64,000 nucleotides of DNA, taken from a bacterium (GTDB lineage: Bacteria; Planctomycetota; JAFGQW01). A program made the translations under genes and the position numbers. The notes under the pieces were generated by a model. It ran no database searches, was not told where the DNA came from, and saw only the letters and a list, made by a program, of their open reading frames with translations. The stretch lies in contig JAUHXU010000003.1 of the NCBI GenBank assembly GCA_030426805.1, forward strand, positions 665,488-729,487. The letters are read 5' to 3'. Positions 1,947 to 60,590 of the stretch are shown one piece after another (within the stretch, counting starts at the first letter, position 1; every line of letters starts with the position of its first letter).

Positions 1947-2909
1947 ATGGACGACCAGGCGGTCTTCAAGGCGATGGCAGACGCGACGCGGCGCAACATC
2001 CTGCAGCTCGCATCGCGCCAGGAGCTCAGCGTGAGCGAACTGGTCGACTGCCTGCGTCAGCCCCAGTCCACCGTTTCGCGCCACCTGAAGGTCCTCCGCG
2101 ATGCAGGACTTCTCCACGACCGACGCGAAGGCACCGCCGTGCTCTACGCGGCGCCGGAGAACGCGACGAACGGCAACGGCGACGCGGACCTGCAGGGCCA
2201 CCTCGTCCATTGGCTGGCCGACCGGCCGCTGCCCCCGTCGCTCGCGCGGCGCCTGCGCGGCATCGTCCAGCGGCGGGCGGGGCGCAGTGACGCGTTCTTC
2301 TCGCAGGTCGGTCACCGCTGGGACCAGATGCGACTCGACGCCTTCGGCGACGCGTTCCACCTCGAGGCGCTCGCGATGCTGCTGCCGGGGGACTGGACCG
2401 TCGCCGACATCGGAACCGGGACCGGCTACCTCCTGCCGACGCTCGGGCGTGCGGTCGAGCGCGTGATCGCGGTCGACCCGGTCGCGGCGATGCTCGACAT
2501 CGCCCGCGACCGCGCGGCGGCCGCGGGCGTCGACAACGTCTCGTTCCGCGAGGGCGGACTGTCGCGGCTGCCGCTGGACGACGGTGCGGTCGATCTCGCG
2601 CTCGCCGTCCTCGTCTTGCATCACGTGCCGTCGCCGGCCGATGCGCTGGCCGAGATCTGCCGCGTCGTGCGGCCCGGCGGCCGCGTGCTGATCGTCGAGC
2701 AGTATGCGCACAGCCTCGAGGCGTTCCACGATCGGATGCAGGATCGCTGGTGGGGCTTCGAGCCGGAGGCGCTCGCCGAGTCGGTGACCAGCGCCGGCTT
2801 CGATGCCGTGCGCCACCGACGCCTGCCGGCGAACGGCGCGGCGGACGCGCCCGACCTCTTCGCACTCACAGCCACTCGACCGGACGGCGCGACGCCGAGC
2901 CGGAATTGA
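1947..2909 (+). CDS. sahR: ArsR/SmtB-type winged-helix regulator fused to a SAM-dependent methyltransferase-like domain (SahR-like SAH-responsive regulator)
   Basis: N-terminus [48 protein letters not shown] is an ArsR HTH. The C-terminus [14 protein letters not shown]...VIAVDP...LVLHHVPSP...[12 protein letters not shown] is a class I methyltransferase fold. It lies immediately upstream of ahcY, which is the SahR arrangement. Start chosen at the ATG for MDDQAV; the ORF-track start at 1815 lies within the promoter. Confidence 0.65.
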
Positions 2910-2961
2910 CTTCTTTCGACTGTTCCCAACGAACCCACGGCCCCGGGCCAAGGAGACTTCG

Positions 2962-4272
<1,311 letters not shown>

Positions 4273-4289
4273 TCCGGCCCGCCTCGATC

Positions 4290-4323
4290 GGCGCGAGCGC
4301 GGCCCGGCACCGACCGGGCCGCG
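4290..4323 (+). terminator. GC-rich hairpin with a 14-bp perfect stem (CGAGCGCGGCCCGG caccga CCGGGCCGCGCTCG) downstream of ahcY
   Basis: Perfect inverted repeat 18 nt after the ahcY stop. There is no U-tract, which is common in high-GC genomes. Confidence 0.45.
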
Positions 4324-4362: not shown

Positions 4363-4407
4363 CGGCGACACGTTTGAGTTGACGTGTCGCCGCAGACGAC
4401 GTATCTT
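4363..4407 (+). promoter_or_regulatory. Promoter TTGACG-N17-TATCTT for fic, embedded in a 10-bp-arm inverted repeat (CGGCGACACG-N10-CGTGTCGCCG)
   Basis: -35 at 4379-4384 and -10 at 4402-4407. The ATG at 4414 lies about 7 nt after the -10, which suggests a leaderless transcript. Inverted-repeat arms are at 4363-4372 and 4383-4392. Confidence 0.4.
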
Positions 4408-4413
4408 CCAGAT

Positions 4414-5556
4414 ATGTCGTCAAAACGCCATTCTGCGAACATGACCTGGGCTCCCGATCGCCCTTACAACGACCTGCCGCCCCTCCCGCCGGCCGCAGAC
4501 GTCGAGACGAAGCCCGTCCTCCGGCGGTGCGCGACCGCGCGAGCCGCCCTCGGCGAGCTCAAACACGCCGTCGACCTGATCCCGAATCAGGGCATCCTCC
4601 TGAACACGCTCCCGCTCCTCGAGGCCCAGGCCAGTTCGGAGATCGAGAACGTCCTCACGACCGCCGATGCCCTTTTCCGCCACCTCGAAGCGGAGCGGGA
4701 CGTCGACCCGGCCACCCGCGAGGCACTCCGCTACCGGGAAGCCCTGATGGACGGCTACCGGGCACTCGCCGACCGTCCGCTCGGCACGCGCACGGCCGAG
4801 GCGATCTGCACGCGCATCAAAGGCGTCGACATGCGCGTCCGCGTCGTGCCCGGCACCACGATCGCGAATGCGGCGACCGCGGAGACGATCTACACGCCGC
4901 CCGACGGCGAGTCCCGGCTCCGCGACCTGCTCGCGAACTGGGAGCGCTTCCTGCACGAACCCTCCGAGCTCGACCCGCTGATTCGGATGGCGATCGCACA
5001 CTATCAGTTCGAGGCGATCCACCCGTTCACGGACGGCAACGGCCGCACCGGGCGGATCCTGAACAGTCTCTACCTCGTGCAGCAGGGGCTCATCGCACTG
5101 CCCGTGCTCTACATGAGCCGCTACATCATCGCAAACAAGCGCGACTACTACCGCATGCTCGCGGCGGTCACGCGCGACGACGACTGGGAACCGTGGATCG
5201 TCTACATGCTGTCGGTGATCACCGACACGGCGCAGTGGACCACGGCCAAGATCTCGGCGATCCGCTCGCTGGCCAACCAGACGAACGAACACGTGCGGCG
5301 CCACCTGCCGAAGATCCACAGTCGCGAGCTGATCGACGTGCTCTTCGAGCAGCCGTATTGCCGTATCGGCAACGTCACCGACGCGGGCATCGTCAGGCGG
5401 CAAGCGGCGTCACGCTACCTGCAGCAGCTCGCGTCGATCGGCGTGCTCGAGGCGCACCGCATCGGCCGCGAGTTGCTGTTCACGCACCCCCGCTTGCTCC
5501 ACCTCCTGACGACCGACGCGAACGACTTCGCGCCGTTCGAGCCTACTGCACCGTGA
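4414..5556 (+). CDS. Fic-family protein (class II Fic AMPylator/adenylyltransferase)
   Basis: Canonical Fic motif HPFTDGNGRTGR is present. An N-terminal inhibitory-helix-like motif SSEIEN matches (S/T)xxxE(G/N). Length about 380 aa. The ORF-track start at 4384 (GTG) lies inside the -35 box, so the ATG at 4414 is preferred. Confidence 0.8.
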   Translation: MSSKRHSANMTWAPDRPYNDLPPLPPAADVETKPVLRRCATARAALGELKHAVDLIPNQGILLNTLPLLEAQASSEIENVLTTADALFRHLEAERDVDPATREALRYREALMDGYRALADRPLGTRTAEAICTRIKGVDMRVRVVPGTTIANAATAETIYTPPDGESRLRDLLANWERFLHEPSELDPLIRMAIAHYQFEAIHPFTDGNGRTGRILNSLYLVQQGLIALPVLYMSRYIIANKRDYYRMLAAVTRDDDWEPWIVYMLSVITDTAQWTTAKISAIRSLANQTNEHVRRHLPKIHSRELIDVLFEQPYCRIGNVTDAGIVRRQAASRYLQQLASIGVLEAHRIGRELLFTHPRLLHLLTTDANDFAPFEPTAP

Positions 5557-6766
5557 AGCCGGCGGTGTTCGCGACCGCTTGCAGGCCGGCGCCGGTGAAC
5601 GTGACGAAGGACACGTAGAAGCGCAGCCCCTGGAGCGGGCCGTTCGGGATCACGACGCCGGCGGCGGCGGTGCCGTTGGCGCCGAGCGTGCCGACGAAGC
5701 CGGGGAAGAGTGCAGGCACGTTCTGGCTCAACAGGAACAGCGTGTCCGGCGTGAGATCGACCGTGCCGATCGGCAGCGCAAACCCCGGTGTGTGCGAGAA
5801 GGACGCAGCCGCGACGTAGTTCGCGCCGGCACTGCCAGGCTCGCTGAAGCGCAGGGCGAGCGTCGTACCCGGCGTCGGGTCGGCGGCCGCGACGACGTTG
5901 CGGCTTCCATAGACCTCGACGTCGAGCGGGAACGGAATCGCGGTCAGCGTCGTCGCGTTCCCGCTGCGATCCACACGAATCAGGTTCGCGTTCGCGGTCG
6001 CGCAACTACCGCCCATGACGAACGCATCCCGCGTGCGATCGTATGCGAGGCCCGGGAAGCAGCCGTTGAACCCGCCGACGATCGTCGTCATCGTGCCGAG
6101 CGTCAGGTTCACCGAGACCAGGCTGTTCTGCTGGCTCACGATCGCCTCGCCGGTGCGGGCATCGCTGATCATGTCGATCGAGTTGTTGATCGCGACCGAA
6201 CCCACCACGAGCGACGACGTGCCGTCGCGTCGCACCGAGAAGAGGTTCGGGATCTCACCCACGAGGTAGCTGCCGGTGCCGATGTCGACCGCCATTCCGC
6301 GCGGCTTGCCGTTGCCGATCGACGGCGCGGGCATGATCGTCGTGACCGCGCCGGTCGCGTCCATCTTGCCGATCATGATGCTGCTCAACCCGATCAGCGG
6401 CACGAGGTAGCTGCCGTCCTGGTCGACCGCGAGGTTCTCGCTGAAGCTGACCGGCAGCGTACCGACGGTCGCGACCGCACCGCCCGGCGACACCTCGGCG
6501 ATGAACGCCGCCGAGCCGGAGCTGCCGAGGACGGCGACATCGCGGTTGTTGGGCGCCATCGTCGCGGCGCTGATCCGGAAGCCGAACGTCGTCATCGTCG
6601 TGATCACGCCGTTGGGCGTCACGGTGAGCAATGCCGCCCCGCCGGTGACGCTCGCCGGGACGACGTAGTCACCCGGGGCCGGTTGGGCCGTCGCGCGAGG
6701 CGCGCCGATCGACGTCGCGAGCGCGAATCCGGCCACGAGCAGCCGCTGTCGGAAAGAGTGGATCAT
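5543..6766 (-). CDS. Secreted hypothetical protein, paralog family with the shared C-terminal domain
   Basis: Start at the ATG for MIHSFRQRLLVAGFALATSIGAPRATAQ (signal peptide) with an AGGAGA RBS. The C-terminus LALRFSEPGSAGANYVAAASFSHTPGFALPIGTVDLTPDTLFLLS...GLRFYVSFVTF is the family signature. The 3' end overlaps the fic stop convergently. Confidence 0.7.
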   Translation of the reverse strand: MIHSFRQRLLVAGFALATSIGAPRATAQPAPGDYVVPASVTGGAALLTVTPNGVITTMTTFGFRISAATMAPNNRDVAVLGSSGSAAFIAEVSPGGAVATVGTLPVSFSENLAVDQDGSYLVPLIGLSSIMIGKMDATGAVTTIMPAPSIGNGKPRGMAVDIGTGSYLVGEIPNLFSVRRDGTSSLVVGSVAINNSIDMISDARTGEAIVSQQNSLVSVNLTLGTMTTIVGGFNGCFPGLAYDRTRDAFVMGGSCATANANLIRVDRSGNATTLTAIPFPLDVEVYGSRNVVAAADPTPGTTLALRFSEPGSAGANYVAAASFSHTPGFALPIGTVDLTPDTLFLLSQNVPALFPGFVGTLGANGTAAAGVVIPNGPLQGLRFYVSFVTFTGAGLQAVANTAGFTVQ

Positions 6767-6905
6767 CGGGCGTTCTCCTGTTCTGTCATCTCGTCTGCCT
6801 GTCCCTCGACCCCGAGTGTCCCTCGCCCCGCCCCCCACCGCAACCGCAAACCCCACAGCCGTGCACGCGACACTACAATGGCGCCCGACGACATCCCGGA
6901 GGTTG

Positions 6906-7277
6906 ATGATGCGCACACTCCTCGGCGCCGCGGTGATCGCGAGCGCGCTCGCCGGTGCCCTTGCGGCCCAATCGGCCCGATTCGCACTCGACGTGGTCTA
7001 CGTCGGCACGCCCGACTCCGACCGCGGCCGCGCGTTCGAGTCGTTCCTGCGCGAGCGATTCGCGTCCGTGCGGGTCGCCGATCGCACCGCGTGGGATCCC
7101 TCGACGGTGGGCGAGGCCTCGGTCGTCGTCCTCGACTGGCCGCAGGACATCAAGGACATGCCGCCGAAGCATTGCCCGCTCGGCCGCTTCGATGCGTGGA
7201 GCACGCCGACGGTACTGATCGGCAGCGCCGGGCTGATGCTCGCGGTCGCCTGGGACGTGCGCGGCGGGATGGGCTGA
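6906..7277 (+). CDS. Signal-peptide protein, 5' portion of a gene interrupted by an in-frame TGA (see findings)
   Basis: GGAGG RBS followed by ATGATG. The signal peptide is MMRTLLGAAVIASALAGALAAQSA. It ends at TGA 7275-7277, and the following 111 nt in the same frame keep a coding-like GC3 of about 78% up to the next ORF. Confidence 0.5.
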   Translation: MMRTLLGAAVIASALAGALAAQSARFALDVVYVGTPDSDRGRAFESFLRERFASVRVADRTAWDPSTVGEASVVVLDWPQDIKDMPPKHCPLGRFDAWSTPTVLIGSAGLMLAVAWDVRGGMG

Positions 7278-7388
7278 ACCTGCCTCGACCCGCTCGCGTA
7301 CGGGCTACGCGACAACGACGCCACCTTCCGGCACCCTGTCTTCCGTGAACCGATTCCGATCGATACGACCAAGACCGTCGAAGCACGC

Positions 7389-8231
7389 GTGCCCAAGTCG
7401 TGGGGCGCCGGCGACGGGCCATACCGCTTCCTGCGCCTCACCCGTGACGACGCGCCTCGCTCGAGGCCAGGCTGGTGCGTCTACCCGTCCGGCTTCGACG
7501 CGACGCCCGAGGTCGAGGTGATCTGCGGCGGACGCAACTCGAAGAAGCCGAGCGCGGCCGCGATCTGGCGGCAGGGCAACTTGCTGCACTTCGGCTTCGA
7601 GCCGGACCCATCGGCTTACAACGAGGTCGGACGCGCGCTGCTGACGAACGCGATCGTCTACGCGTCGCGCTTCGGCGACGACCGGCCGCTGTTTCGCGAG
7701 AAGAGCCCGTTCAAGTCGAAGGGCCGCGGTCGGCGCCCGATCACGCCCGACTTCGTCGGGCAGTGGCGGGACAAGTTCAACGTCAAGATGATCGACTACT
7801 GGTTCGAGCCGGAGTTGCTCGCGGCGGTCCCGCGCGACGATGCCGAGATATTCTGGGCGTGGTTCGATGCGAACCGCCCGTTCCTGCGCACGACCGAGGC
7901 CGGCAAGCTCGCCTTCGACGAGGAGGCGCGGGCGCTCGGTGCGAAGCCACGCGCCGCGTCGTTCTTCGCCGACACGATCGCGATGCTCGATCGCGGCGAC
8001 CGCGCCCGGGCGCAGAAGCTGCTCGCACGGTACGCCCCCGAAGGCGCGCCGAAGAGCGAAGCGGGCGCCGAGATCTGGTCCACGTGGTGGCGCGACAACG
8101 GGCCGTATCTCTACTGGTCCGAGTCCGACGGCCATCGCTGGGCGCTCGACCGGCTCGCAAAGCGTCGCGGCATACCGACCGGCGAATGCCGCGGCCCGAA
8201 ACGCGCGGGCCCCTATCCGCTACCCCGGTAG
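7389..8231 (+). CDS. Hypothetical protein, 3' portion in the same frame as 6906-7277 (GTG start in the track; probably a continuation)
   Basis: Same reading frame as the upstream ORF, with a single intervening stop. No recognisable domain. The 3' end overlaps fxsA convergently. Confidence 0.5.
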   Translation: MPKSWGAGDGPYRFLRLTRDDAPRSRPGWCVYPSGFDATPEVEVICGGRNSKKPSAAAIWRQGNLLHFGFEPDPSAYNEVGRALLTNAIVYASRFGDDRPLFREKSPFKSKGRGRRPITPDFVGQWRDKFNVKMIDYWFEPELLAAVPRDDAEIFWAWFDANRPFLRTTEAGKLAFDEEARALGAKPRAASFFADTIAMLDRGDRARAQKLLARYAPEGAPKSEAGAEIWSTWWRDNGPYLYWSESDGHRWALDRLAKRRGIPTGECRGPKRAGPYPLPR

Positions 8232-8714
8232 CTTGTCGCGGTCGTCGTCGCGGACTTCGACTTCGACGTCGATCACGTCGGGGCCGGGGCCCCGCGGGGA
8301 CTCGCCGCCGGGGAAGCCACCCCCGGGGAAGCCACCGAACGTCCGGACCTCGACCTGCTTCGCGAAGTGGCGCTTGAGGCTCTCCGCGCCGCTGCGACGC
8401 GCGCCCGGTGCCAGCAGCAGGAAGCCGAGCGCGTCCGTGACGAAACCCGGTACGAGCAGCATCACGCCGGCGACGACGAGGATCACGCCCTCGAGAATCT
8501 CGGTCGCAGGAACACGCCCCGCCATCGCCTCGGCGTTCACCCGTTGGAGGGTGAGTCGCCCCTGACGTCGCGCGATCGTCCCGCCGATCACCGCGGTCAG
8601 CAGGCACAGTCCGACGGCCGTCAACGGGCCGAACGCGCCCGCGACCTTGACGAGCAACACGAGCTCGACGAACGAGAGCGCGAGCGCGATCAGAAAGAAG
8701 AGTCCGACGAAGGG
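8220..8714 (-). CDS. fxsA: FxsA family cytoplasmic membrane protein
   Basis: MPFVGLFFLIALALSFVELVLLVKVAGAFGPLTAVGLCLLTAVIGGTIARRQGRLTLQRV...LVVAGVMLLVPGFVTDALGFLLL matches the FxsA architecture. The C-terminus is low-complexity and Gly/Pro-rich, with a 12-bp direct repeat. Confidence 0.75.
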   Translation of the reverse strand, partial: PFVGLFFLIALALSFVELVLLVKVAGAFGPLTAVGLCLLTAVIGGTIARRQGRLTLQRVNAEAMAGRVPATEILEGVILVVAGVMLLVPGFVTDALGFLLLAPGARRSGAESLKRHFAKQVEVRTFGGFPGGGFPGGESPRGPGPDVIDVEVEVRDDDRDKLPG

Positions 8715-8757
8715 CATGGAGCAGTGTTCGCGCCGGTTCGTGCTCGGGTCAAGGAGC

Positions 8758-8793
8758 GACCAGCTTCTGGCCACCGGTCACCAGTTTCTGGTG
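8758..8793. promoter_or_regulatory. Two adjacent palindromes, GACCAGCTTCTGGCC and CACCAGTTTCTGGTG, in the fxsA/efflux divergent intergenic region; candidate operator
   Basis: CACCAGTTTCTGGTG (8779-8793) is a perfect 15-nt palindrome. The upstream copy (8758-8772) has a perfect 11-nt core. They lie about 70 nt upstream of the first efflux gene. Confidence 0.3.
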
Positions 8794-8863: not shown

Positions 8864-10273
8864 GTGTCGGCCATGCTCGATCGATCCCACCGCGTGGCCA
8901 TCGCCGCCGCGCTCCTGACGCTCGCCGGCTGCGCGGCTTCGGGCCCGGGTTTCCGCGCCGACGAGACGCCGGCACTCGCGCCCGCGCGCACGACGCCGGC
9001 CGCGCCAGCCGCGGTCACACCGCGGAAGCGATCCGACGAGCCTGCGCGGCTGCACGACTCCGACGGTCGCCTCTCGCTCGCGGGCGCCCTGCGCACCGCA
9101 CTGGAGACGAGCCCGCGCATCCGCGCCGCGCGCGAAGCCGCCGGCGCAGCGGCAGCCCGCGAAGGACACGTCGCCGCATTGCCGGATCCGATGGTGCGCC
9201 TCGGCTGGTACGCCGAACCGATCGAGACCCGAACCGGCCCACAACGCTGGTCGCTCGCCGTGCAACAGGCGATCCCGTGGCCGGGCGCGCTCACGGCCAC
9301 CGCGCGGGTCGCCGAGGCGGGCCGCCGTGTCGCAGAGACGCGGGCAGCGATCACGACGCGCGACGTGCTCGTCGACGTCGCGCGCACCTACCACGAACTC
9401 GACTACCTGCACCGTGCCCGTCAGACGACGACGGCGATCACGCGCGCCCTCGAACGGCTGGTCGCATTCGCCGCGCGAGGTGACGACGACGGACAGGCAC
9501 GCATCCCCGAGACGGTCCGCGCCGAGACGTGGCTCGTGCGCACACGCAACGACGCGCTGATGCTCGAGGAACTCGAACGCACCGAACGCGCACGACTCCG
9601 CTCCCTGCTCGGCCTCTCCCCCGACGCGTCGATCGGCACGCCTCGCGGCATCATCGCGATACCGTTGAATGCATCGGTCGACGCTCTGGCTGCACGCGCG
9701 GAGCAGGGCAACCACGATCTCGCGCTCGCCGCGCTCGAGGCCGAACACGCCGAGCGCGACGCCGAGCGCCTCGCGACGCGCAGCTATCCCCAACTCGCGA
9801 TCGGCGGCCGCTACATCGCGACCGAACGGCGCGACGACGCGGACCCGCGCGGCAACGGGGACGACCCGCTGTTCCTCGAACTCGGGGTGTCGATCCCGAT
9901 CTGGCTCGGCGCGAACGGCGCGGCACACCGCGAGGGCGCGAGTCGTGCGCGCGCCGCCGCGCACGCGCACGACGCGATGCGTCACCGGCTGCGTGCCGAC
10001 ATCGCGCGGGCCTACTGGCGCGCCGCGAACGCCGAACGGTTGTGGCACCTGCATCGCGACGCGTTCGTCCCGCAGGCGCAGCGCGCGGCTGCATCCGCGG
10101 AAGCGCTGTTCGACGAGGGCCACGCGTCGTTCACGGCCGTCGTCGAGACACTCGCCGCGTGGCACCAACTCGAACTCGCGATGCACCGCGCCCGCGCCGA
10201 CTACTTGCAGACGATCGCCGCGATCGAACGCCTCGTCGGCGCGCCGCTCGCTCGCACCGGAGACGACCGATGA
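8864..10273 (+). CDS. TolC-like outer membrane efflux protein (OMF lipoprotein, CusC/CzcC-like), copy 1
   Basis: Signal peptide plus lipobox (LLTLAGCAAS). An alpha-helical, Ala/Arg-rich TolC-like repeat structure, about 470 aa. GTG start at 8864 (ATG at 8873 is an alternative). Confidence 0.75.
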   Translation: MSAMLDRSHRVAIAAALLTLAGCAASGPGFRADETPALAPARTTPAAPAAVTPRKRSDEPARLHDSDGRLSLAGALRTALETSPRIRAAREAAGAAAAREGHVAALPDPMVRLGWYAEPIETRTGPQRWSLAVQQAIPWPGALTATARVAEAGRRVAETRAAITTRDVLVDVARTYHELDYLHRARQTTTAITRALERLVAFAARGDDDGQARIPETVRAETWLVRTRNDALMLEELERTERARLRSLLGLSPDASIGTPRGIIAIPLNASVDALAARAEQGNHDLALAALEAEHAERDAERLATRSYPQLAIGGRYIATERRDDADPRGNGDDPLFLELGVSIPIWLGANGAAHREGASRARAAAHAHDAMRHRLRADIARAYWRAANAERLWHLHRDAFVPQAQRAAASAEALFDEGHASFTAVVETLAAWHQLELAMHRARADYLQTIAAIERLVGAPLARTGDDR

Positions 10274-11781
10274 TCCGCGCAGCACTCGCGCTCGTCGTCG
10301 TGGTCGTCGCCGGTTGCGCCCACCCCGCGCCGGCGCCGACGACGACGCCGTTCGCGCGCGACTTCATCGATGCGGCAGACGCGGCAGACGCGGCGGCCGC
10401 CGAAGAGCCGGCGAGCGCACCCGTCCCGTCGGCCGAGCCCGCCGAGCGACCGGCGGTCCGCGGCCGCGACGACGAACTCGCCGCGACCCTCGGCGGCTCC
10501 GCGCCGCCGATCGACCTGACCGACGACGACCGCTTCGCGTCGTGGCTCGCTGAACCGCGCACAGCCGACGCGCTGATGCGCGCCGCCTGGTTGCGCCATC
10601 CGGCCGTCGCCGCTGCACGCGCGAAGCACCGCGCCGTCGCCCATCGCTACGACCAAGCGCACTACCTCGCCGACACCGTCGGCCGCTACCGCACGTTCAC
10701 CCGCACCCAGATGCAGCGGATCGGTCCGTCCGGCGCCGCGGGCACGCGCGCCGCCGAGTCGATGCTCGTCCCGGCGCCCTCGATCGCGACGCTGCGTGAA
10801 CGCCTCGCGACGCTCGCGACCGACGACGCCTGGCAACGACTGCGCAAGACGATCGTCGACCGGGCGGCGGACGTTCTGGACGCGACCGCGGCACTGCGAC
10901 TCGCCGCGAACCTCGAGCGGATCGCGACCGCGCATGCGGCGCTCCTCGGCGACCTCGAACCGGTCGTGCAGCGACGCGTGTCCGCGGGGCACGGCAGCCG
11001 CGCCGACGTGCTGCGCATCCGCGCCGCAATCGCCGACCTCGAACGCGAGGCGACGGTCCGCGCCGCGGAGCGGACGCACGCGACGACGTGGCTGCGCACG
11101 GCACTCGCTTGCGACGGCACGCCCGAGGTCCGACTCGCGTCCGCGCCGCGCTGGGCGGCGCCGCCGGCAGCCGCCGACCTCGAGCGCGTCGCGCGCACCG
11201 ACGCACCGGCAAGTCGAATCGCGGCGATCGCCGAGGCGCGGGCCGATGCGGCGATCGCGCTCGCCGAACGCATGACGATCCCGCAGGTCGACCTCGGCTC
11301 GACACGCGTGGAGCGCGGGATGACCGGCGACGCCGGCGACGCGCGCACGCCGATGTTGACGCCGACACGGCCCCGCGTCGACGTCGGCCCGATCGGCTTC
11401 GCGCCGACGACCGCGATGCTCGACGAGTTGCGCGAGCGACGCGCGGCGGCGCGCGAACACGTGCGGAGCGTCGCGCGCGACACGACGACGGCGGCGTCCG
11501 CCGCGCGCACGCGCGTGATCGACGCCGATGCACGCTTCGCGGTCCACGAATCGCGGCTCGTCCCGCTGAGCCGCCAGGCATACGACACGCTGCTCGGCGC
11601 CTATGCGGGCCGTCGCGCCGCGTTCGTCGACGTGATTCGCGCCGCCGAGGAGCGGCTGCGCGTCGACCGCGGCCTCGCGCAAGCACAGCACGACGCGACC
11701 CGCGCGCGCGCGACGCTCCTCCGAGCGACCGGCGATGCGCGCACGATCCCCTTCGCACCCACCGCCGGAGACGACCGATGA
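10270..11781 (+). CDS. TolC-like outer membrane efflux protein (OMF lipoprotein), copy 2
   Basis: The ATG overlaps the upstream stop (ATGA). Lipobox VVAGCAHP. It ends in ...TGDDR, as copy 1 does, and has similar composition, which suggests a tandem paralog. Confidence 0.7.
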   Translation: MIRAALALVVVVVAGCAHPAPAPTTTPFARDFIDAADAADAAAAEEPASAPVPSAEPAERPAVRGRDDELAATLGGSAPPIDLTDDDRFASWLAEPRTADALMRAAWLRHPAVAAARAKHRAVAHRYDQAHYLADTVGRYRTFTRTQMQRIGPSGAAGTRAAESMLVPAPSIATLRERLATLATDDAWQRLRKTIVDRAADVLDATAALRLAANLERIATAHAALLGDLEPVVQRRVSAGHGSRADVLRIRAAIADLEREATVRAAERTHATTWLRTALACDGTPEVRLASAPRWAAPPAAADLERVARTDAPASRIAAIAEARADAAIALAERMTIPQVDLGSTRVERGMTGDAGDARTPMLTPTRPRVDVGPIGFAPTTAMLDELRERRAAAREHVRSVARDTTTAASAARTRVIDADARFAVHESRLVPLSRQAYDTLLGAYAGRRAAFVDVIRAAEERLRVDRGLAQAQHDATRARATLLRATGDARTIPFAPTAGDDR

Positions 11782-12467
11782 AGACACTCGTCGTGCCCGT
11801 AGTCGCCGCGATCGTCGCTGGCGTCGCGATCGCGATCCTGATTCGCGCGGGCGGATCCCCGCCGCGACCGACACCCGCCCCGGCGTCCCACGCGCATGCC
11901 GGCCACGCGATGCCGGACAAGCCGAAGAAAGCCGACGCGCACGCGGGACACGCGAAGCCCGCTACACCGACCGACCCGAAACCGGCGGACCCGGCACCGT
12001 CTCCGCCCGACACGCTGCTCGCCCGCCTCGTCGACGCCGGCTACCGGGACGCCGGCAACGAGACGTGCCCGATCATGGGCAACGCGTCCGACGGCGACGA
12101 CCCGACCGTGATCGCCTACAACGGCTGGCTCGTTCGCTTCTGCTGTCCCGGCTGCGACACCCGATTCCTCGCGTCGCCGCGCGACCACCTGCGGGCACTC
12201 CGCGACGGCGGCGACACGATTCCCGACGCACTCCTCGCGGCGGACGCGCACCCCGCGGTCGTCCGCGCGAACAACACCGCGTGCCCGATCACCGGCGCAC
12301 CGGTCGACGACAAGAGCCCGACGATCGTGCACCGCGGAGTCGTCGTGCGGGTGCGCGACACCGACGCGCTCGTCGCGTTCGCGAAGGCGCCCGACCGTGC
12401 GCTCGCCGAGGCCGCAAAGACCGGGACCGTCCCCGCGGACCGCCTCCCCGGCGGAGGTGAACGATGA
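11778..12467 (+). CDS. Membrane-anchored periplasmic His-rich / Cys-motif putative metal-binding protein
   Basis: ATGA overlap with the upstream gene. An N-terminal TM segment is followed by the His-rich stretch HAHAGHAMPDKPKKADAHAGHAKP. Two repeats follow with CPI(M/T)G ... and FCCPGC Cys motifs. It sits inside the heavy-metal efflux operon. Confidence 0.6.
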   Translation: MKTLVVPVVAAIVAGVAIAILIRAGGSPPRPTPAPASHAHAGHAMPDKPKKADAHAGHAKPATPTDPKPADPAPSPPDTLLARLVDAGYRDAGNETCPIMGNASDGDDPTVIAYNGWLVRFCCPGCDTRFLASPRDHLRALRDGGDTIPDALLAADAHPAVVRANNTACPITGAPVDDKSPTIVHRGVVVRVRDTDALVAFAKAPDRALAEAAKTGTVPADRLPGGGER

Positions 12468-13858
12468 CCGGACTGCGACTCGGCTTGGTGCTTGGCGGAA
12501 TCGTGCTCGGGCTCGCGGTCGGGTTCGTGCTGCCGGACCGGTGGCTGTTCGACGGCGTGACCGCGGAATCGGCGCCATCGGGCGCCGGCACTCAGTACGC
12601 GTGCCCGATGTTCTGCGTCGTCGAGAAGACGCTTCCCCCCGACGGCAAGTGCTCGGTGTGCGGCATGGAACTCGCGGCGATCTCGTCGGCGCCGACGATC
12701 GACCGGCACGAGCGCGCGATGATCGGCCTCGAGCCGGCGCGAATCCGGGCGCTGCCGCTCGTGCGTGAGGTACGCCTCTTCGGCGAGGTCGACTACGACG
12801 ACACGCGCATCGTCGCCGTGTCGGCGCGCGCCGACGGCTGGCTCGAGCGGGTCGACGCCCGCGCGACGTGGACCGACGTGAACGAAGGCGACCCGTTGTT
12901 CGCGCTCTACAGCCCGGCGCTCTTCGAGGCGCAGCAGGAGTTCTTGAGCCTGCGCAACGCCGACGCGACGCTTCGCGACAGCGCGGTCGAACGACTCCGA
13001 CTGCTCGGCCTCGACCGCCGCGAGATCGACGCGATCGCCGACGCCGGCGCACCCCAGCGCACGCTCACCTACCGAGCGCCGCGCGCGGGCACGATCGTTC
13101 GGCGTCGCGCGGTCGAAGGTGCCGCGGTCAAACAGGGCCAGGAGATCTACGCGATCGCCGACCTCGATCGGGTGTGGCTCCAGATGGAGGCGTTCGAGAG
13201 CGACCTGCCGTTGCTCCGGCCCGGCGTCGAGGTGCGCATCACCGCCGATGTGCACCGCGCCGACGAACCGGTCGAACGCACCGGCCGCATCGCGTTCGTC
13301 GACCCGGTCGTCGATCCGCGTGCACGCACCGTCCGCGTGCGCGTCGAGATGGACAACCCCCGCACGGACGGTCGCTACGCACTGCTGCCGGGCCAGCGCG
13401 TCGTCGGCGTCGCGCGGTTGCCGCTCGGTGCCGACGAGCCGGACGGCGAACCGGTCCCGACGCTCGCGATCCCGCGCGACGCGATCCTGCGCACCGGGGA
13501 GCGCACGATCGTCTACGTCCTGCACGGGATGACCGACGAGGGCGCACCGGACTACGCGATCGACGCCGATGCACTCCCCGACACGCTCGGCTACGAACTC
13601 GTCGAGGTGGCGCTCGGTCCGCTCGCGCGGCGCGCGGACGCCGAGACCCGTGAGGACTACTATCCGCTCGTCCGCGTCGTGCCGCCGCCACCCGGCGAGG
13701 GCAACGACCTGCGGCTGCGCCGCCTGCGCGCCGGTCACGTGATCGCGCGCCACGGCGCGCTGCTGCTCGACTCGCAGGCACAACTCGCGGGCCGCCCGTC
13801 GCTCCGCTTCCCCACCGGTCGCGACGGCGCGCCCGCCGACCCGCACGCGAACCACTGA
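12464..13858 (+). CDS. Efflux RND periplasmic adaptor (membrane-fusion protein, CusB/CzcB-like) with an N-terminal heavy-metal-binding domain
   Basis: ATGA overlap. YACPMFCVVEKTLPPDGKCSVCGMEL is the YxCPMHP...CPxCGM heavy-metal-binding motif. The rest is HlyD-like beta-barrel and lipoyl-type adaptor sequence. Confidence 0.85.
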   Translation: MTGLRLGLVLGGIVLGLAVGFVLPDRWLFDGVTAESAPSGAGTQYACPMFCVVEKTLPPDGKCSVCGMELAAISSAPTIDRHERAMIGLEPARIRALPLVREVRLFGEVDYDDTRIVAVSARADGWLERVDARATWTDVNEGDPLFALYSPALFEAQQEFLSLRNADATLRDSAVERLRLLGLDRREIDAIADAGAPQRTLTYRAPRAGTIVRRRAVEGAAVKQGQEIYAIADLDRVWLQMEAFESDLPLLRPGVEVRITADVHRADEPVERTGRIAFVDPVVDPRARTVRVRVEMDNPRTDGRYALLPGQRVVGVARLPLGADEPDGEPVPTLAIPRDAILRTGERTIVYVLHGMTDEGAPDYAIDADALPDTLGYELVEVALGPLARRADAETREDYYPLVRVVPPPPGEGNDLRLRRLRAGHVIARHGALLLDSQAQLAGRPSLRFPTGRDGAPADPHANH

Positions 13859-13871
13859 TCGGGAGTCGTCC

Positions 13872-16800
13872 GTGCTCAACGCGATGATCCGCTTCTCCGT
13901 TCGCAACCCGGTGCTCGTGCTGGTGTTCACCGCCGCCGCGTTCGCATGGGGGTGGTCGGCGTGGACGAACAAGACCGTCGACGCGATCCCGGACATCAGC
14001 GAGAACCAGGTGATCGTCGACGCCGCGTGGCCCGGACGCTCACCGAAGGACGTCGAAGACCAGGTGACGTTCCCGCTGTCGACGCGACTCGCGGGCGTCA
14101 AGGGCGTCAAGGAAGTCCGCGGCCTCTCCGGCTTCGGGTTCAGTCGGATCTACGTCGTGTTCGACGAGCCGATCCGGCTCTTCGAGCGCTCGGCGATCGA
14201 CGACTTCTACGAGTCGCGCACGCGCGTGCTCGAGCACCTCGCGACGGTCGCGTCCGATCTGCCGCCGGACGTGACGCCGGAACTCGGCCCCGACGCGACC
14301 GCGCTCGGGCAGATCTTCATGTACACGGTCGACGGGCCGTACGACCTCGCCACGCTGCGCAGCGTCCAGGACTTCGTCGTGAAGTACGAGCTGCAAGCGG
14401 TGCCCGGCGTCGCCGAGGTCGCGAGCGTCGGCGGGCAGGTGCGCGAATACCAGATCGACGTCGACCCCGACAAGATGCGCCACTACCACGTCGGCATCGC
14501 CGAGATCGCGCAGGCGATCCGCCGGGCGAACCTCGACGTGGGCGCGAAGACCCTCGAACAGGGCGGCGAAGAGGCGATCCTCCACGGCCTCGGCTTCATC
14601 GATTCGATCCGCGACATCGAAGAAGTGCCGATCCTCACGCACCAGGCGATGACGCCGGATCGCGACGCGCGTGCGGGGTTGCGCACGCTCGTCGTGCCGC
14701 GAACCGACGGCGGGATCGTCGCCGGCGACCGCGGCGCGCCGGCGCACCGACCGGTGCTCGTGCGCGACGTCGCGACCGTGAAGATCGGGCCGGCGTTCCG
14801 GCGCGGCGCACTCGCGGACGGCGCCGGCGAGCGCACCGGCGGCATCGTCACGATGCGGCTCGGGGCGAACCCCCGCGACGTGATCGAGGGCGTGCGCGCG
14901 GCGATCCTCCGGATGAACGAACCGGCGAACTCGATCCTGCCGCCGGGGGTCCGGATCGTGCCGTTCTACGACCGCACGCAGCTGATCGACGAAACCGTCG
15001 AGACGCTCGAGACCGCACTCGGTCAGGAACTGTGGATCACGATGTTCGTCGTGCTCGTGTTCCTGCTGCACTTGCGATCGGCGCTCGTGATCTCGGTGAC
15101 GCTGCCACTCGCGGTGATCTCGAGCTTCGTGCTGATGGACCTCACCGGCGTCGCGTCGAACATCATGAGCCTGACCGGCATCGCGATCGCGATCGGCACG
15201 ATGGTCGACATGGGCGTCGTGATGACGGAGAACATCTACCAACGGTTGCAGGCCGACGGTGGCGCTCGACCGCGACGCGAGGTGATCGAGGAGGCCGCGT
15301 GCGAGGTCGGACCGGCGCTGCTGACCGCCGTCGCGACGACCGTGATCAGCTTCATCCCGATCCTGTTCCTGACGGATCAGGAAGGCAAGCTCTTCCGACC
15401 GCTCGCGTGGACGAAGACGTTCGCGCTCGGGATGGCGGCGATCGCCGGCGTCTTCGTCGTGCCGGTGCTGTGCCGACTGTTCCTGCGCGAGGGCGCCGCG
15501 GTCCGCGCGCCGGGACAGGGTCGCGCGCGACGAATGCTGACGGTCGCGGCCGTCGCTTCCCTGCTCGGATTCGTCGCCGCGCGGCTGGGGCTGCTCGGCC
15601 TCGAGCCGCTCGTCGCATTCGCGGTCGTCGCCGTGCTCGTCGCGACCGCGGTCGCGTGGATGATGCGCGAACGGCTCGTGCCGATCGACGACAACCCGGT
15701 CACGCGCGCGATCCACGGCGCCTATCGTCCGACGATGCGGTGGATCCTCGACCACAAGCTCACGTTCCTCTCGATACCGCTGCTGATGATCGTCGTCGGG
15801 CTCGTGGTCGCCATCGGCCTGCCGACTGCGCTGCGCCCGGTGCGCGCGATCGTCGGCGACGGCGTCGACCGACTGAAGCCGGTCGCGTGGCTGTCGGAGA
15901 AGTTCGGCGGCATCGGCCAGGAGTTCATGCCGCCGCTCGACGAGGGCAGCCTCCTCTACATGCCGTCGCTGCTGCCGCGCGCGTCGCTCGACGAGGCGCT
16001 CGCGGTGATGCAGCGGCAGAACGCGCAGATGGAACGCGTGCCCGAGGTCGCCAAGGTGATGGGCAAGCTCGGTCGCGCGGAGACCGCGCTCGACCCGGCG
16101 CCGGTCGGGATGTTCGAGACGATCGTCGTGTTGAAGCCGCGCTCGGAATGGCGGCCGGGCAAGCTCAAACGCGACATCGTCAACGAACTGATGCGTGTCG
16201 CGCACACGCCCGGCGCGGCCGCCGGTCCGGGTGCGTGGCTGCAGCCGATCGAGACGCGCGTCGTGATGCTCAGCTCCGACGTGCGCGCGCCGCTCGCGAT
16301 CCGGCTGATCGGCAGCCCGCGCGACGCGAGCGGCCGCACGCTCGACGCGAAGGAGGGAATCGTCGAACTCGAGCGCGTCGCCGCGAAGATCCGCGACGTC
16401 GTCGCGGCCGTCCCCGGCGCGGCCGGCCCCAACGTCGAGAACCTCGGCGGCAAGCCCTACATCGAGTTCGAGATCGATCGCGAGCGCGCGGCGCACTACG
16501 GCGTGTCGGTCGGCGACGTGCAGGACGTGATCGCGACCGCGATCGGCGGCATGGTCGTCGGGCAGACGCTCGAAGGGCGCGAACGCTACGGCATCCGTGT
16601 CGCGTACGAGCGTGAGCGCCGCGACCGACTCGAGTCACTCGACCGCGTGCTCGTTCGGACCGGCACGCGCGGTCACGTGCCGCTCTCGTACGTCGCGACC
16701 GCGAAGCAGACGACCGGGCCGGCGATGATCAAGACCGTCGACGGACGGCTGCGACTCCACGTGATGTTCGCGGCGCGCGACCGCGACGAGCGCTCGGTCG

Positions 16801-36267: not shown

Positions 36268-36352
36268 CGCTGCTCCGGTCGTGTCCGTCCTCACAGTGCC
36301 TCGGCCGCCGGAATCCCGGACCGATCGGCGCCCGCAATTTTCGAAAACGTGC

Positions 36353-36380
36353 CGAACGCCCGGGGGTTCGACGGCGGTTC
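36353..36380 (-). promoter_or_regulatory. Candidate ECF-type promoter (GGAAC-N18-CGTTC) upstream of the ECF-fusion gene
   Basis: On the minus strand, GGAAC lies at 36380-36376 and CGTTC at 36357-36353. Speculative autoregulated ECF promoter. Confidence 0.25.
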
Positions 36381-36487
36381 CAACCGCTGCCGTGTACGGG
36401 TGGTGGCTACCTGACGCGCCGTTGACGATCGTGCGTGGGCCGGCTACCGTCTGGGCGGTGGTGGCGGGAAGTGACGGGAGCGCAACG

Positions 36488-49614: not shown

Positions 49615-49788
49615 AGTGCACCTCCGTGCCTGCACTCTACCCGCGTTCCGCGAAGCGCGAAAGGCATGTAGGCGAGCGGCCGAGGGTCTCGCCCGGGGGG
49701 CGAATCTGGGCTACCCTTGCGAAACCGACCCCCGTCGCAAATGCGGGGCCGTCGGGGGATCCGGGAGTACTATTGGCATCGGAGGAAT

Positions 49789-60099: not shown

Positions 60100-60590
60100 C
60101 GTTCGTCTCCGTCGTCCGGCAGCTCGAGGGGCGGCTGACCGTAGCGCGCGCGCATCCAGTCGATGCCGCGATGCACCGCGGGGATCCGCACGATCGCGAG
60201 TTCGAGGCGACGCTTGCCGGGGAAGTTCATCAGTGAGATCCCGATCAGAATCGTCAACACGCCTTGGCCGGGGAGCACGAGCATCGCGATCCCGGCGATC
60301 ACGAGTATGACGCCGAGCACGTTCTTCAACACGACGGCGAGTTGCGCCTGGACCGGGTGGCGCCCGACCCACGAGTCGCCGGGACCGCGGTCGGGCATGA
60401 AGTGATCGGCGCGCATGCGAACGACGAGGATCGGCAGGATCACGAGGCTCGCGACGAACGTCGCGACCGACAGGCCGACGAGCGACCAGAACAACCACGG
60501 GTGCGCGCCGAGCCAGTCGGTCAGGGTGCCGAACCACGCGGCCAGCGTGTCGGTGACGGTTGCTGCGACGGGAATCGGCACGGCACTCAC
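60096..60590 (-). CDS. PGPGW-like small transmembrane protein
   Basis: Hydrophobic helices including LVLPGQGVLTILIGISL. GTG start at 60590 overlaps the cls stop (GTGA). Seen only as the C-terminal part of a longer artefact ORF in the track. Confidence 0.5.
   Translation of the reverse strand: MSAVPIPVAATVTDTLAAWFGTLTDWLGAHPWLFWSLVGLSVATFVASLVILPILVVRMRADHFMPDRGPGDSWVGRHPVQAQLAVVLKNVLGVILVIAGIAMLVLPGQGVLTILIGISLMNFPGKRRLELAIVRIPAVHRGIDWMRARYGQPPLELPDDGDER

What the first reader, a model, noticed from the sequence alone, without database searches (positions are those of the whole stretch)
6906..8231. Single in-frame TGA interrupts an otherwise continuous secreted-protein gene: pseudogene, readthrough or selenocysteine candidate
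ORFs 6906-7277 and 7389-8231 are in the same frame, separated only by TGA at 7275-7277. The 111 nt between them keep strong coding-frame codon bias (GC3 about 78%) and there are no other stops. The most economical reading is one gene of about 440 aa with a nonsense codon. The local context is G-M-G-[TGA]-T-C (a U-x-C-like arrangement), and a 6-bp stem hairpin CGCGTA-cgggc-TACGCG lies 17-35 nt downstream. That loosely resembles the position of a bacterial SECIS, but the protein has no redox-family features, so selenocysteine is a long shot against pseudogenisation or sequencing error.
Basis: seen in the sequence. Interest (0 to 1): 0.55.

Follow-up and report, generated by a model that had tools for sequence, protein, structure and literature searches.

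The report
Overlooked exported selenoprotein gene with SECIS
The "interrupted" gene is almost certainly intact: its TGA most likely encodes selenocysteine, directed by a conserved RNA hairpin just downstream, and it belongs to a widespread secreted protein family that does not appear in current selenoprotein catalogues.

Summary
Window 6906-8231 (+) is one frame with a single TGA at 7275-7277.

- More than 350 full-length homologues of about 435 aa span the site. The TGA column is the first Cys of a nearly invariant G-x-G-C-T-C-L-x-P motif.
- The same codon is TGA in 82 fetched loci (73 distinct sequences) and TGC/TGT in 65. The TGA loci come from Planctomycetota, Verrucomicrobiota and other MAGs and from metagenome contigs.
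- Only the TGA forms keep a 7-bp hairpin, UCGCGUA-CG[G/U]GN-UACGCGA, at window 7294-7312. About 99% of its pairs form, against 64% in Cys forms, and four pairs show compensatory changes. It forces the rare Leu codons CTA/TTA.
- The hairpin meets all four published criteria for a bacterial SECIS (Sec insertion sequence).
- dN/dS is below 1 on both sides of the TGA.

Not tested: selA/B/C/D in the same genome (absent from the window) and biochemical function.

The parts
6898..6902 (+). GGAGG ribosome-binding-site-like sequence, 3 nt before ATG 6906 and 6 nt before ATG 6909
   Evidence: Read directly from the sequence. Function is inferred.
6906..8231 (+). Complete selenoprotein coding sequence: 441 residues including Sec124, stop TAG at 8229-8231
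   Evidence: One frame with a single TGA. Homologues of about 435 aa cover 92-100% of it. Alignment A1. dN/dS is below 1 in all three segments against L001 and L002.
6906..6977 (+). N-terminal signal peptide (MMRTLLGAAVIASALAGALAAQSA; exact cleavage site not determined)
   Evidence: Basic residue plus hydrophobic stretch plus A-x-A-like end, read from the translation. Homologues have equivalent hydrophobic N-termini. The AlphaFold2 model shows an N-terminal helix of low confidence. Inference only; no signal-peptide predictor was run.
6981..7670 (+). Class-I glutamine-amidotransferase-like / ThuA-like alpha/beta domain (about residues 26-255)
7275..7277 (+). UGA codon 124, read as selenocysteine
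   Evidence: Aligns with a nearly invariant Cys. TGA at the same column in 82 loci against TGC/TGT in 65.
7281..7283 (+). TGC, Cys126, partner of Sec124 in the U-T-C (CxC) motif
   Evidence: C126 is conserved in at least 90% of alignment A1. It is present in all Sec and Cys forms listed.
7294..7312 (+). Bacterial SECIS hairpin: stem 7294-7300 / 7306-7312, apical loop CGGGC at 7301-7305
   Evidence: RNAalifold predicts it independently. 98.9% of pair cells form, three pairs show compensatory changes, and 0 of 500 shuffles reach the covariation score. Replicated in 43 independent metagenome sequences at 99.7% paired. Cys forms reach 62-66%. MFE is -8.1 to -9.5 kcal/mol in the window. It meets the published bSECIS criteria.
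7389..8231 (+). Truncated ORF (280 aa, GTG start) as called in public annotation (P0001); an artefact of treating the Sec codon as a stop
   Evidence: P0001 is 100% identical and covers only 63% of the full protein. Many representative clusters start just after the Sec position.
7746..8204 (+). C-terminal helical domain (about residues 281-433) with no structural or sequence relative identified

Best explanation
Window 6906-8231 (+) is one intact gene for an exported selenoprotein of 441 residues.

How the recoding most likely works:
- UGA at 7275-7277 is decoded as selenocysteine.
- The mRNA folds, inside the coding sequence, into a 7-bp hairpin with a CGGGC apical loop (7294-7312). There are 23 nt between the UGA and the loop.
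- By analogy with characterised bacterial systems, this hairpin is a SECIS element. It would be bound by SelB carrying Sec-tRNA(Sec) and would deliver it to the ribosome paused at the UGA.

What is shown here:
- a Sec/Cys pairing at an invariant active-site-like position;
- recurrence of the TGA in many lineages under purifying selection;
- a hairpin conserved at synonymous sites, with compensatory changes, only in the TGA forms.

What is inferred: SelB-dependent decoding itself, and the presence of selA/B/C/D in this genome.

The protein:
- It has a signal peptide, a glutamine-amidotransferase-like/ThuA-like alpha/beta domain and a helical C-terminal domain.
- Sec124 and Cys126 form a U-x-C pair in a Gly-rich loop (G-G-x-G-U-T-C-L-x-P) that follows the helix after strand 4.
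- The most likely role (inferred, moderate confidence) is a periplasmic redox-active selenol/thiol centre that cycles through a selenenylsulfide.
- It is possibly kept reduced through a DsbD-type relay, because two homologues carry a fused DsbD N-terminal domain.
For: 1. One gene. More than 350 homologues were found, most about 430-450 aa and covering 92-100% of the read-through protein.

2. Sec/Cys pair. In alignment A1 the TGA column is Cys in every full-length homologue, inside GGxG-C-T-C-(L/M)-x-P.

3. Recurrence.
- The closest relatives, L001 (82% identity) and L002 (55%), have TGA at the same codon.
- In GTDB species genomes and JGI metagenome contigs, 82 loci (73 distinct sequences) have TGA and 65 have TGC/TGT.
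- The TGA forms come from Pirellulales, Gemmataceae, Isosphaeraceae, Verrucomicrobiota, Hydrogenedentota and Brocadiaceae MAGs, among others.

4. Purifying selection against L001: dN/dS is 0.27 upstream of the TGA, 0.42 in the 'gap' segment and 0.28 downstream.

5. SECIS.
- RNAalifold and pair counting give the same 7-bp helix: 98.9% paired, compensatory changes at three pairs, 0 of 500 shuffles reaching the covariation score, and slid controls at 7-48% paired.
- It replicates in an independent metagenome set at 99.7% paired.
- In the combined set, all 73 Sec sequences have MFE at or below -7.5 kcal/mol, against 9 of 61 Cys forms.
- The compensatory changes are G-C to U-A and to C-G at pair 24/34, U-A to C-G at pair 25/33, U-A to A-U at pair 20/38, and one C-G to G-C at pair 21/37.
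- Sec forms fix the synonymous sites as GCG-TAC-G[G/T]G-YTA-CGC, while Cys forms with the same A-Y-G-L-R peptide use mixed codons.
- CTA is 0.95% and TTA is 0% of Leu codons in the window's coding-like ORFs, yet YTA is used in 23 of 26 Sec forms.

6. The hairpin meets the published bSECIS constraints (PMC13188914): loop of 3-9 nt (here 5), stem of 4-16 bp (here 7), G in the first two loop positions followed by G or U (here C-G-[G/U]), 16-37 nt from UGA to loop (here 23), and MFE at or below -7.5 kcal/mol.

7. TGA is an ordinary stop in this window: 31 of 64 long coding-like ORF segments end in TGA. This argues against genome-wide reassignment.

8. Structure. The model has pLDDT 86.5 and a GATase1/ThuA-like fold.

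9. DsbD_N fusions in P0014 and P0118 are confirmed above the Pfam cut-off.
Against: - No selA, selB or selD homologue and no tRNA gene lies in the 64-kb window or in any fetched locus. Sec machinery in this genome is therefore unverified. The organism could not be identified.
- The hairpin's folding energy in a 66-nt context is not better than shuffled sequence.
- No Rfam family matches.
- All Sec forms found are from MAGs or metagenomes. Every cultured isolate in the sample (Singulisphaera, Novipirellula, Roseiconus) has the Cys form. No organism is at hand in which incorporation has been seen.
- The redox role is inferred from a CxC motif and two fusions. No gene neighbourhood is conserved, and the fold is not a classical redox fold.
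Confidence: 0.9

Rival explanations
1. Pseudogene. A nonsense mutation has inactivated a gene that once had Cys at this position.
For: A single in-frame stop in an otherwise intact frame is what a young pseudogene looks like. Public annotation calls only the 280-aa downstream ORF.
Against: The same TGA is present in 73 distinct sequences from several phyla. dN/dS is 0.27-0.56 on both sides against relatives at dS 0.4-1.0. A hairpin under selection at synonymous sites accompanies the TGA and is absent from Cys forms.
Confidence: 0.03
2. Sequencing or assembly error. The real codon is TGC or TGT.
For: A one-base change separates TGA from TGC/TGT. Reads were not available to me.
Against: Independent assemblies of two other sequencing runs (L004 and L005, Logan ERR3420974 and ERR3428546) carry the identical TGA. 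So do the relatives L001-L003 and dozens of other assemblies.
Confidence: 0.01
3. Two separate genes. Translation stops at TGA, giving a 123-residue exported fragment, and a second protein starts at GTG 7389.
For: Gene callers produce exactly this split.
Against: The 37 codons between the TGA and 7389 are conserved in frame (dN/dS 0.42) and align with the homologues. In the model the split would cut through the middle of one alpha/beta domain. Start positions of the 'downstream ORFs' differ between relatives (profile positions 128-174), as expected if they are simply the first chance start codon.
Confidence: 0.03
4. The UGA is read through without Sec. This could be near-cognate read-through as Trp, Cys or Arg, or a lineage-specific UGA reassignment.
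For: Sec machinery is not demonstrated for this genome. UGA-to-Trp reassignment does exist in some bacteria (abstract of PMC13462651).
Against: TGA ends 31 of 64 long coding-like ORF segments in the window. The recoded site is a single, specific Cys-aligned column in many phyla. The accompanying hairpin has the position, size and G[G/U] loop of a SelB-binding SECIS.
Confidence: 0.03

Closest known systems
Bacterial Sec-UGA/SECIS recoding as characterised for E. coli formate dehydrogenases (fdhF) and summarised in the bSECISearch consensus model
   Same: An in-frame UGA is followed inside the coding sequence by a stem-loop. There are 23 nt between the UGA and the apical loop (allowed range 16-37). 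The loop is small, with G followed by G or U. The stem is 7 bp and MFE is at or below -7.5 kcal/mol. Cys-containing homologues exist.
   Different: The protein family is different and the hairpin sequence is its own (UCGCGUA-CGKGN-UACGCGA). SelB binding and Sec insertion are not tested. Sec machinery is not seen in the window.
[quoted passage not shown]
   Same: It is the only listed selenoprotein with a class-I glutamine-amidotransferase-type domain. The protein here has that fold.
   Different: The protein here does not match NF004836 or any other NCBIfam or Pfam model. Its motif is G-U-T-C, 17 residues after the position of the nucleophile elbow, which here reads G-S-A-G. It also has a signal peptide and an extra helical domain.
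ThuA-like / GATase1-like proteins of known structure (PDB 4jqs, 3rht, 1t0b, 4e5v)
   Different: Sequence identity is 9-13%, with no Pfam ThuA or GATase hit and no profile hit to any PDB sequence. I have no evidence that those proteins carry the CxC loop. The C-terminal helical domain is unmatched.
[quoted passage not shown]
   Same: They share the U-x-C spacing of Sec and its partner Cys.
   Different: The folds and families are unrelated, and there is no HMM match.
DsbD-dependent periplasmic thiol-disulfide oxidoreductases (DsbC, DsbG, CcmG) and their Sec-containing relatives (DsbG-like and DsbA-like selenoproteins)
   Same: The protein is exported and has a conserved Cys/Sec pair. Two homologues are fused to a DsbD N-terminal domain.
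   Different: The fold is not thioredoxin-like and the motif is CxC rather than CxxC. No dsbD or other redox gene is conserved next to it.

Membership tests
Bacterial selenoprotein gene (Sec-UGA with bSECIS) | The in-frame UGA aligns with Cys in homologues (a Sec/Cys pair) | tested here: met
   The TGA column is a nearly invariant Cys in alignment A1. 65 loci have TGC/TGT at that codon.
Bacterial selenoprotein gene (Sec-UGA with bSECIS) | Sequence is conserved on both sides of the UGA, under purifying selection | tested here: met
   Homologues cover 92-100% of the protein. dN/dS is 0.27, 0.42 and 0.28 against L001, and 0.35, 0.56 and 0.51 against L002.
Bacterial selenoprotein gene (Sec-UGA with bSECIS) | TGA-containing homologues occur in other organisms | tested here: met
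   82 loci, 73 distinct sequences, from several phyla and many metagenomes.
Bacterial selenoprotein gene (Sec-UGA with bSECIS) | A stem-loop downstream of the UGA meets the bSECIS consensus: loop 3-9 nt, stem 4-16 bp, G in the first two loop positions, 16-37 nt spacing, MFE at or below -7.5 kcal/mol | tested here: met
   Criteria are taken from PMC13188914. Here the loop is CGGGC (5 nt), the stem is 7 bp, the spacing is 23 nt and MFE is -8.1 to -9.5 kcal/mol. All 73 Sec sequences have MFE at or below -7.5. Covariation is shown. bSECISearch itself was not run.
Bacterial selenoprotein gene (Sec-UGA with bSECIS) | selA, selB, selC (tRNA-Sec) and selD are present in the same genome | not testable with these tools
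   The window has no tRNA gene. tblastn with E. coli SelA, SelB and SelD found nothing in the window or in any locus. The rest of the genome could not be reached.
Bacterial selenoprotein gene (Sec-UGA with bSECIS) | Selenium is demonstrably incorporated at the UGA position | not testable with these tools
   This needs 75Se labelling or mass spectrometry.
Any of the 119 catalogued prokaryotic selenoprotein families/subfamilies (PMC13188914, Table 1) | A match to the family's domain model. The table gives an InterPro-based domain ID (mostly Pfam or NCBIfam/TIGRFAM, a few cd or PTHR) for every family | tested here: not met
   No Pfam-A hit at E up to 1. No NCBIfam release 20.0 hit at E up to 1 for the window protein or for two Cys homologues. 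The precomputed Pfam column is empty for the listed homologues apart from the two DsbD_N fusions. The table was read. The few families defined by cd or PTHR models were not scanned; by name they have unrelated folds.
Class-I glutamine amidotransferase-like fold (GATase1 / ThuA-like) | Three-dimensional similarity of the alpha/beta domain | tested here: met
Class-I glutamine amidotransferase (catalytic triad enzymes) | A Cys nucleophile at the elbow after strand 4, plus a His/Glu pair; a match to the GATase sequence models | tested here: not met
   The elbow after strand 102-105 reads G-S-A-G, with no Cys. The Sec/Cys lies 17 residues further on. There is no Pfam GATase hit.
Thioredoxin-fold thiol/selenol oxidoreductases (UxxC / CxxU) | A thioredoxin-like fold with a two-residue spacer motif | tested here: not met
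   The fold is GATase1-like. The motif is U-T-C, with a one-residue spacer.

The most novel reading that the evidence does not exclude
The gene is a founding example of an uncatalogued selenoprotein family.

- The family is large: 1241 clusters at 50% identity. It occurs in Planctomycetota, Verrucomicrobiota and neighbouring phyla, largely from what appear to be soil, peat and sediment metagenomes.
- In the sample fetched here, Sec forms are at least as common as Cys forms, and they occupy the deep branches of a rough tree. All Sec forms share one homologous SECIS. This suggests that Sec is the ancestral state, with repeated Sec-to-Cys replacement.
- If so, a selenol sits in an exported glutamine-amidotransferase-like scaffold and performs a periplasmic chemistry that has not been described. 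It could act as a redox centre or as a nucleophile working with the invariant His228.
Probability: 0.5. Interest if true: 0.7.

Novelty: new member of a known kind. Interest (0 to 1): 0.6.

Why it matters
The mechanism, UGA recoding by a bacterial SECIS, is textbook. What appears to be new is the protein family.

- It matches no Pfam or NCBIfam model, and it is absent from a 2026 inventory of 119 prokaryotic selenoprotein families.
- Public annotation, including the NCBI record of this very genome, systematically truncates its Sec-containing members to the part after the UGA.
- The family is common in PVC-group bacteria (Planctomycetota, Verrucomicrobiota and relatives). Recognising it would correct hundreds of gene models.
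- It would add an exported, non-thioredoxin-fold selenoprotein to the known set.
- It offers an unusually clean natural experiment on how a SECIS inside a coding sequence constrains codon and amino-acid choice: A-Y-[G/V]-L-R with rare Leu codons in Sec forms, against A-Y-D-L-R with free codons in Cys forms.
- It suggests that selenium use in these bacteria is under-counted.

Tried and rejected
- **Single-sequence folding energy.** The z-scores of the region after the TGA are not significant in the window, L001 or L002. I dropped this as evidence in favour of comparative analysis.
- **Rfam.** The scan of 7200-7400 gave only chance-level hits at E above 2.
- **Sequence family searches.** Pfam and NCBIfam found no family. 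A profile search against PDB sequences found nothing at E up to 10.
- **Sec machinery.** ARAGORN found no tRNA in the window. tblastn with E. coli SelA, SelB and SelD against the window and all loci found nothing.
- **Organism identity.** Cluster look-ups gave no names or accessions. Look-ups of the NCBI contig through two window proteins were not on record. Adenosylhomocysteinase homologues suggest only weakly that the organism is Planctomycetota.
- **The window's genome in genome contigs.** It was not among the hits.
- **Conserved gene neighbourhood.** There is none. The two large 'neighbour' clusters turned out to be antisense ORFs overlapping the family gene itself.
- **Other TGA-interrupted coding-like frames in the window.** The GC3 filter gave eight candidates, none convincing. 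They were not pursued.
- **Position of Sec124 relative to His228, Ser107 and Cys191.** Model coordinates are not exposed, so this was not measurable.
- **Literature search for 'selenoprotein' plus 'ThuA'.** It returned nothing relevant.
Full report
**1.

Window 6906-8231 (+) translates as 442 codons with one internal stop, TGA at 7275-7277 (codon 124), and a terminal TAG. The 111 nt between them have GC3 of 78.4%, against 0.90 in the flanking parts. A GGAGG sits 3-6 nt before the paired ATG codons at 6906 and 6909. The N-terminus (MMRTLLGAAVIASALAGALAAQSA) looks like a secretion signal; that is read from the sequence and no predictor was run.

**2. It is one gene**

A search of about 5.8 billion proteins found 357 homologues. 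Most are 430-450 aa and cover 92-100% of the read-through protein. The three closest hits are exceptions, at 266-299 aa, and cover only the part after the TGA.

In the alignment (A1) the TGA column is Cys in every full-length homologue. It is the first Cys of a nearly invariant G-G-x-G-C-T-C-(L/M)-x-P motif.

**3. The TGA recurs**

- The contigs of the two truncated relatives show the same picture as the window. L001 (82% identity) and L002/L003 (55%) have TGA at exactly this codon, with continuous conserved frames on both sides.
- Two independent assemblies of other sequencing runs carry sequence identical to the window, TGA included (L004, L005). This removes sequencing error as an explanation.
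- A scan of one genome per GTDB species gave 71 loci. A scan of JGI metagenomes gave 80 more.
- Counting the codon at the motif column, first with a strict pattern and then with a relaxed one plus tblastn, gives 82 loci with TGA (73 distinct 60-mers) and 65 with TGC/TGT (61 distinct).
- TGA forms come from MAGs labelled Pirellulales, Gemmataceae, Isosphaeraceae, Planctomycetaceae, Mariniblastus (two paralogues), Verrucomicrobiota, Hydrogenedentota, Brocadiaceae and Methylomirabilota.
- All cultured isolates in the sample (Singulisphaera, Novipirellula rosea, Roseiconus) have Cys.
- Between the window and L001 (dS about 0.4), dN/dS is 0.27 upstream of the TGA, 0.42 in the stretch that annotation leaves non-coding, and 0.28 downstream. 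Against L002 the values are 0.35, 0.56 and 0.51.

A pseudogene cannot explain this.

**4. The hairpin is a conserved RNA element tied to the TGA**

In the 26 distinct Sec-form sequences of the first set, the nucleotides from +20 to +38 are almost invariant, including synonymous sites: tC GCG TAC G[G/T]G YTA CGC Ga.

Structure and covariation:
- RNAalifold predicts a single 7-bp helix, columns 20-26 with 32-38, and a 5-nt loop.
- Pair counting gives 98.9% of cells paired, three pairs with changes on both sides, and 0 of 500 column shuffles reaching the covariation score. Sliding the 3' arm drops pairing to 7-48%.
- The 43 Sec forms picked up by the strict motif in the independent metagenome set give 99.7% paired. 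The Cys forms give 66%.
- In the combined set, all 73 Sec sequences fold at -7.5 kcal/mol or better over nt 16-43 (mean -9.45). Only 9 of 61 Cys forms do (mean -4.99).

Compensatory changes:
- G-C to U-A (7 sequences) and to C-G (2) at pair 24/34. These even change Arg to Ser or Gly.
- U-A to C-G (3) at pair 25/33, which is Tyr to His together with YTA to YTG.
- U-A to A-U (2) at pair 20/38.
- One C-G to G-C at pair 21/37.

Other points:
- Loop positions 1, 2 and 4 are almost fixed as C, G and G (72 of 73 sequences). Position 3 is G or U, and position 5 is free.
- Cys forms that encode the same A-Y-G-L-R peptide (L016, L022, L030, L039) use other codons and do not pair. The hairpin is therefore not a by-product of the protein sequence.
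- The Leu codon inside the 3' arm is CTA or TTA in 23 of 26 Sec forms. In the window's own coding-like ORFs, CTA is 0.95% and TTA 0% of Leu codons.
- The element also constrains the protein. Codon 10 after the UGA is Gly or Val (GGG/GTG) in Sec forms but mostly Asp in Cys forms.

In window coordinates the stem is 7294-7300 / 7306-7312 and the loop is 7301-7305. MFE is -8.1 kcal/mol for the bare hairpin.

The 2026 review of prokaryotic selenoproteomes gives the bacterial SECIS model as follows:
- an apical loop of 3-9 nt;
- an upper stem of 4-16 bp;
- G in one of the first two loop positions, usually followed by G or U;
- 16-37 nt between the UGA and the loop;
- MFE at or below -7.5 kcal/mol.

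All five points are met, with 5 nt, 7 bp, C-G-[G/U], 23 nt and -8.1 to -9.5 kcal/mol.

Two results do not help. Single-sequence folding z-scores are unremarkable, and Rfam has no matching family.

**5. Other readings**

- TGA terminates 31 of 64 long coding-like ORF segments in the window. UGA is therefore a normal stop here, which argues against reassignment.
- The two-gene reading would cut one alpha/beta domain in half. It also requires ignoring conserved in-frame codons.
- The 'starts' of the downstream ORFs in relatives scatter over profile positions 128-174. That is the pattern expected if each is just the first chance start codon.

**6. What could not be tested**

The window has no tRNA gene. 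E. coli SelA, SelB and SelD find nothing in the window or in any fetched locus.

I could not reach the rest of the genome or name the organism. Adenosylhomocysteinase at 2803-4272 is closest (78%) to Planctomycetes and Phycisphaerales MAG proteins among named hits, which is weak evidence for Planctomycetota. A published genome analysis reports complete Sec-insertion gene sets in Gemmata obscuriglobus and Isosphaera pallida (PMC4807772). Those are the families of several TGA-carrying MAGs here, which is consistent with Sec use but indirect.

**7. The protein**

- AlphaFold2 on alignment A1 gives a confident model, with pLDDT 86.5 and pTM 0.87.
- The C-terminal 160 residues are helical and have no match.
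- The canonical nucleophile elbow after strand 102-105 reads G-S-A-G. The U-T-C lies 17 residues later, in a Gly-rich loop after helix 108-116.
- Other invariant residues, including W190, E204, N211, W221, R222, N225 and H228, lie on later strands of the same domain.
- Two homologues are fused to a DsbD N-terminal domain, one at each end, above the Pfam cut-off.
- No neighbouring gene is conserved across loci.

My working model is an inference: a periplasmic selenol/thiol redox centre that cycles through a selenenylsulfide, possibly fed by a DsbD-type relay. A nucleophilic catalytic role with His228 is the main alternative.

**8. Comparison with what is known**

The recoding mechanism is the standard bacterial one. 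The family seems not to be catalogued:
- No Pfam-A hit.
- No NCBIfam release 20.0 hit for the window protein or for two Cys homologues.
- The 2026 review's Table 1 lists 119 families and subfamilies, each with an InterPro-based domain ID (mostly Pfam or NCBIfam/TIGRFAM, a few cd or PTHR).
- The only amidotransferase-type entry there is the CTP-synthase-related GxUxG family (NF004836) from the deep-Sep study. The protein here does not match it.
- The criteria those authors use for a new family are a Sec/Cys pair with conserved flanks, TGA homologues in other organisms, and a SECIS-like structure. All are met here.

I cannot exclude a description in a paper outside the searchable library.

**9. 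Size and evolution of the family**

An exhaustive profile search of 1.84 billion representatives finds 1241 clusters at E up to 0.001 and 782 at E up to 1e-10. By my reading of the list (an eye count), about 30 of the best 150 are proteins of about 280-320 aa that begin right after the Sec position. These are mis-called Sec forms.

A rough midpoint-rooted neighbour-joining tree places Sec forms on the deep branches, with several Cys clades nested among them. Together with the single shared SECIS, this suggests Sec-to-Cys replacements rather than repeated gains. The tree is too crude to settle the matter.

**10. Verdict**

This is very probably a genuine Sec-encoding gene. The recoding mechanism is ordinary, but the family is apparently new and is widespread.

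Noticed in passing
window 8220-8774 (-): An FxsA-family membrane protein gene converges on the selenoprotein gene and overlaps its last 12 nt. The same arrangement is seen in L001 and L004.
   Followed up: partly
window 8864-17501 (+): A Cus/Czc-like RND efflux cluster: OEP 8864-10273, a second OEP-like ORF at about 10282-11781, a CusB-like membrane-fusion protein at 12464-13858 and an AcrB-family pump at 13872-17501. It lies next to the selenoprotein gene only in the window and L001, so it is probably unrelated.
   Followed up: partly
window 4384-5556 (+): A Fic/DOC-family protein with SoFic-like N- and C-terminal domains.
   Followed up: no
window 5543-6916 (-): A divergently oriented 457-aa ORF with a hydrophobic N-terminus and no Pfam match. 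A homologous ORF sits in the same place in L001. Its annotated GTG start would overlap the selenoprotein start codon.
   Followed up: no
window 2803-4272 (+): Adenosylhomocysteinase. The public gene call is 436 aa, so the real start lies downstream of 2803. The closest named relatives are Planctomycetes and Phycisphaerales MAG proteins at 78% identity, the only hint to the organism.
   Followed up: partly
family-wide (one search list; P0001, P0002, P0003): Gene callers systematically truncate the Sec forms. By an eye count, about 30 of the best 150 representative clusters are proteins of about 280-320 aa that start at profile positions 128-156, just after Sec (position 124). The N-terminal 120-130 aa are called as separate small ORFs.
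   Followed up: partly
L020 and L061 (Mariniblastus MAG CBDDAC01); L045 and L050 (Planctomycetota MAG DASUFY01): Single MAGs carry two Sec-form paralogues of the family. The Mariniblastus copies have a variant motif, G-F-G-U-S-C-L-H-Q.
   Followed up: no
L012 397-3387 (+): A 997-aa ORF runs in frame from far upstream into the Sec codon of the family gene. It could be a fusion to a large N-terminal extension or a chance open frame.
   Followed up: no
loci L006-L076, minus strand over positions about 3000-4300: Long antisense ORFs overlapping the family gene cluster with each other across loci and mimic 'conserved neighbours'. This is an artefact of G+C-rich coding DNA.
   Followed up: yes
window 56399-59329 (+), 60587-62014 (-), 36086-39109 (+), 47134-49635 (-): A GH92 alpha-mannosidase-like protein with an F5/8 type C domain; a PLD-type (cardiolipin-synthase-like) protein; a large TPR protein; and a DUF7948/beta-propeller protein. 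This is ordinary gene content with no link to the finding.
   Followed up: no
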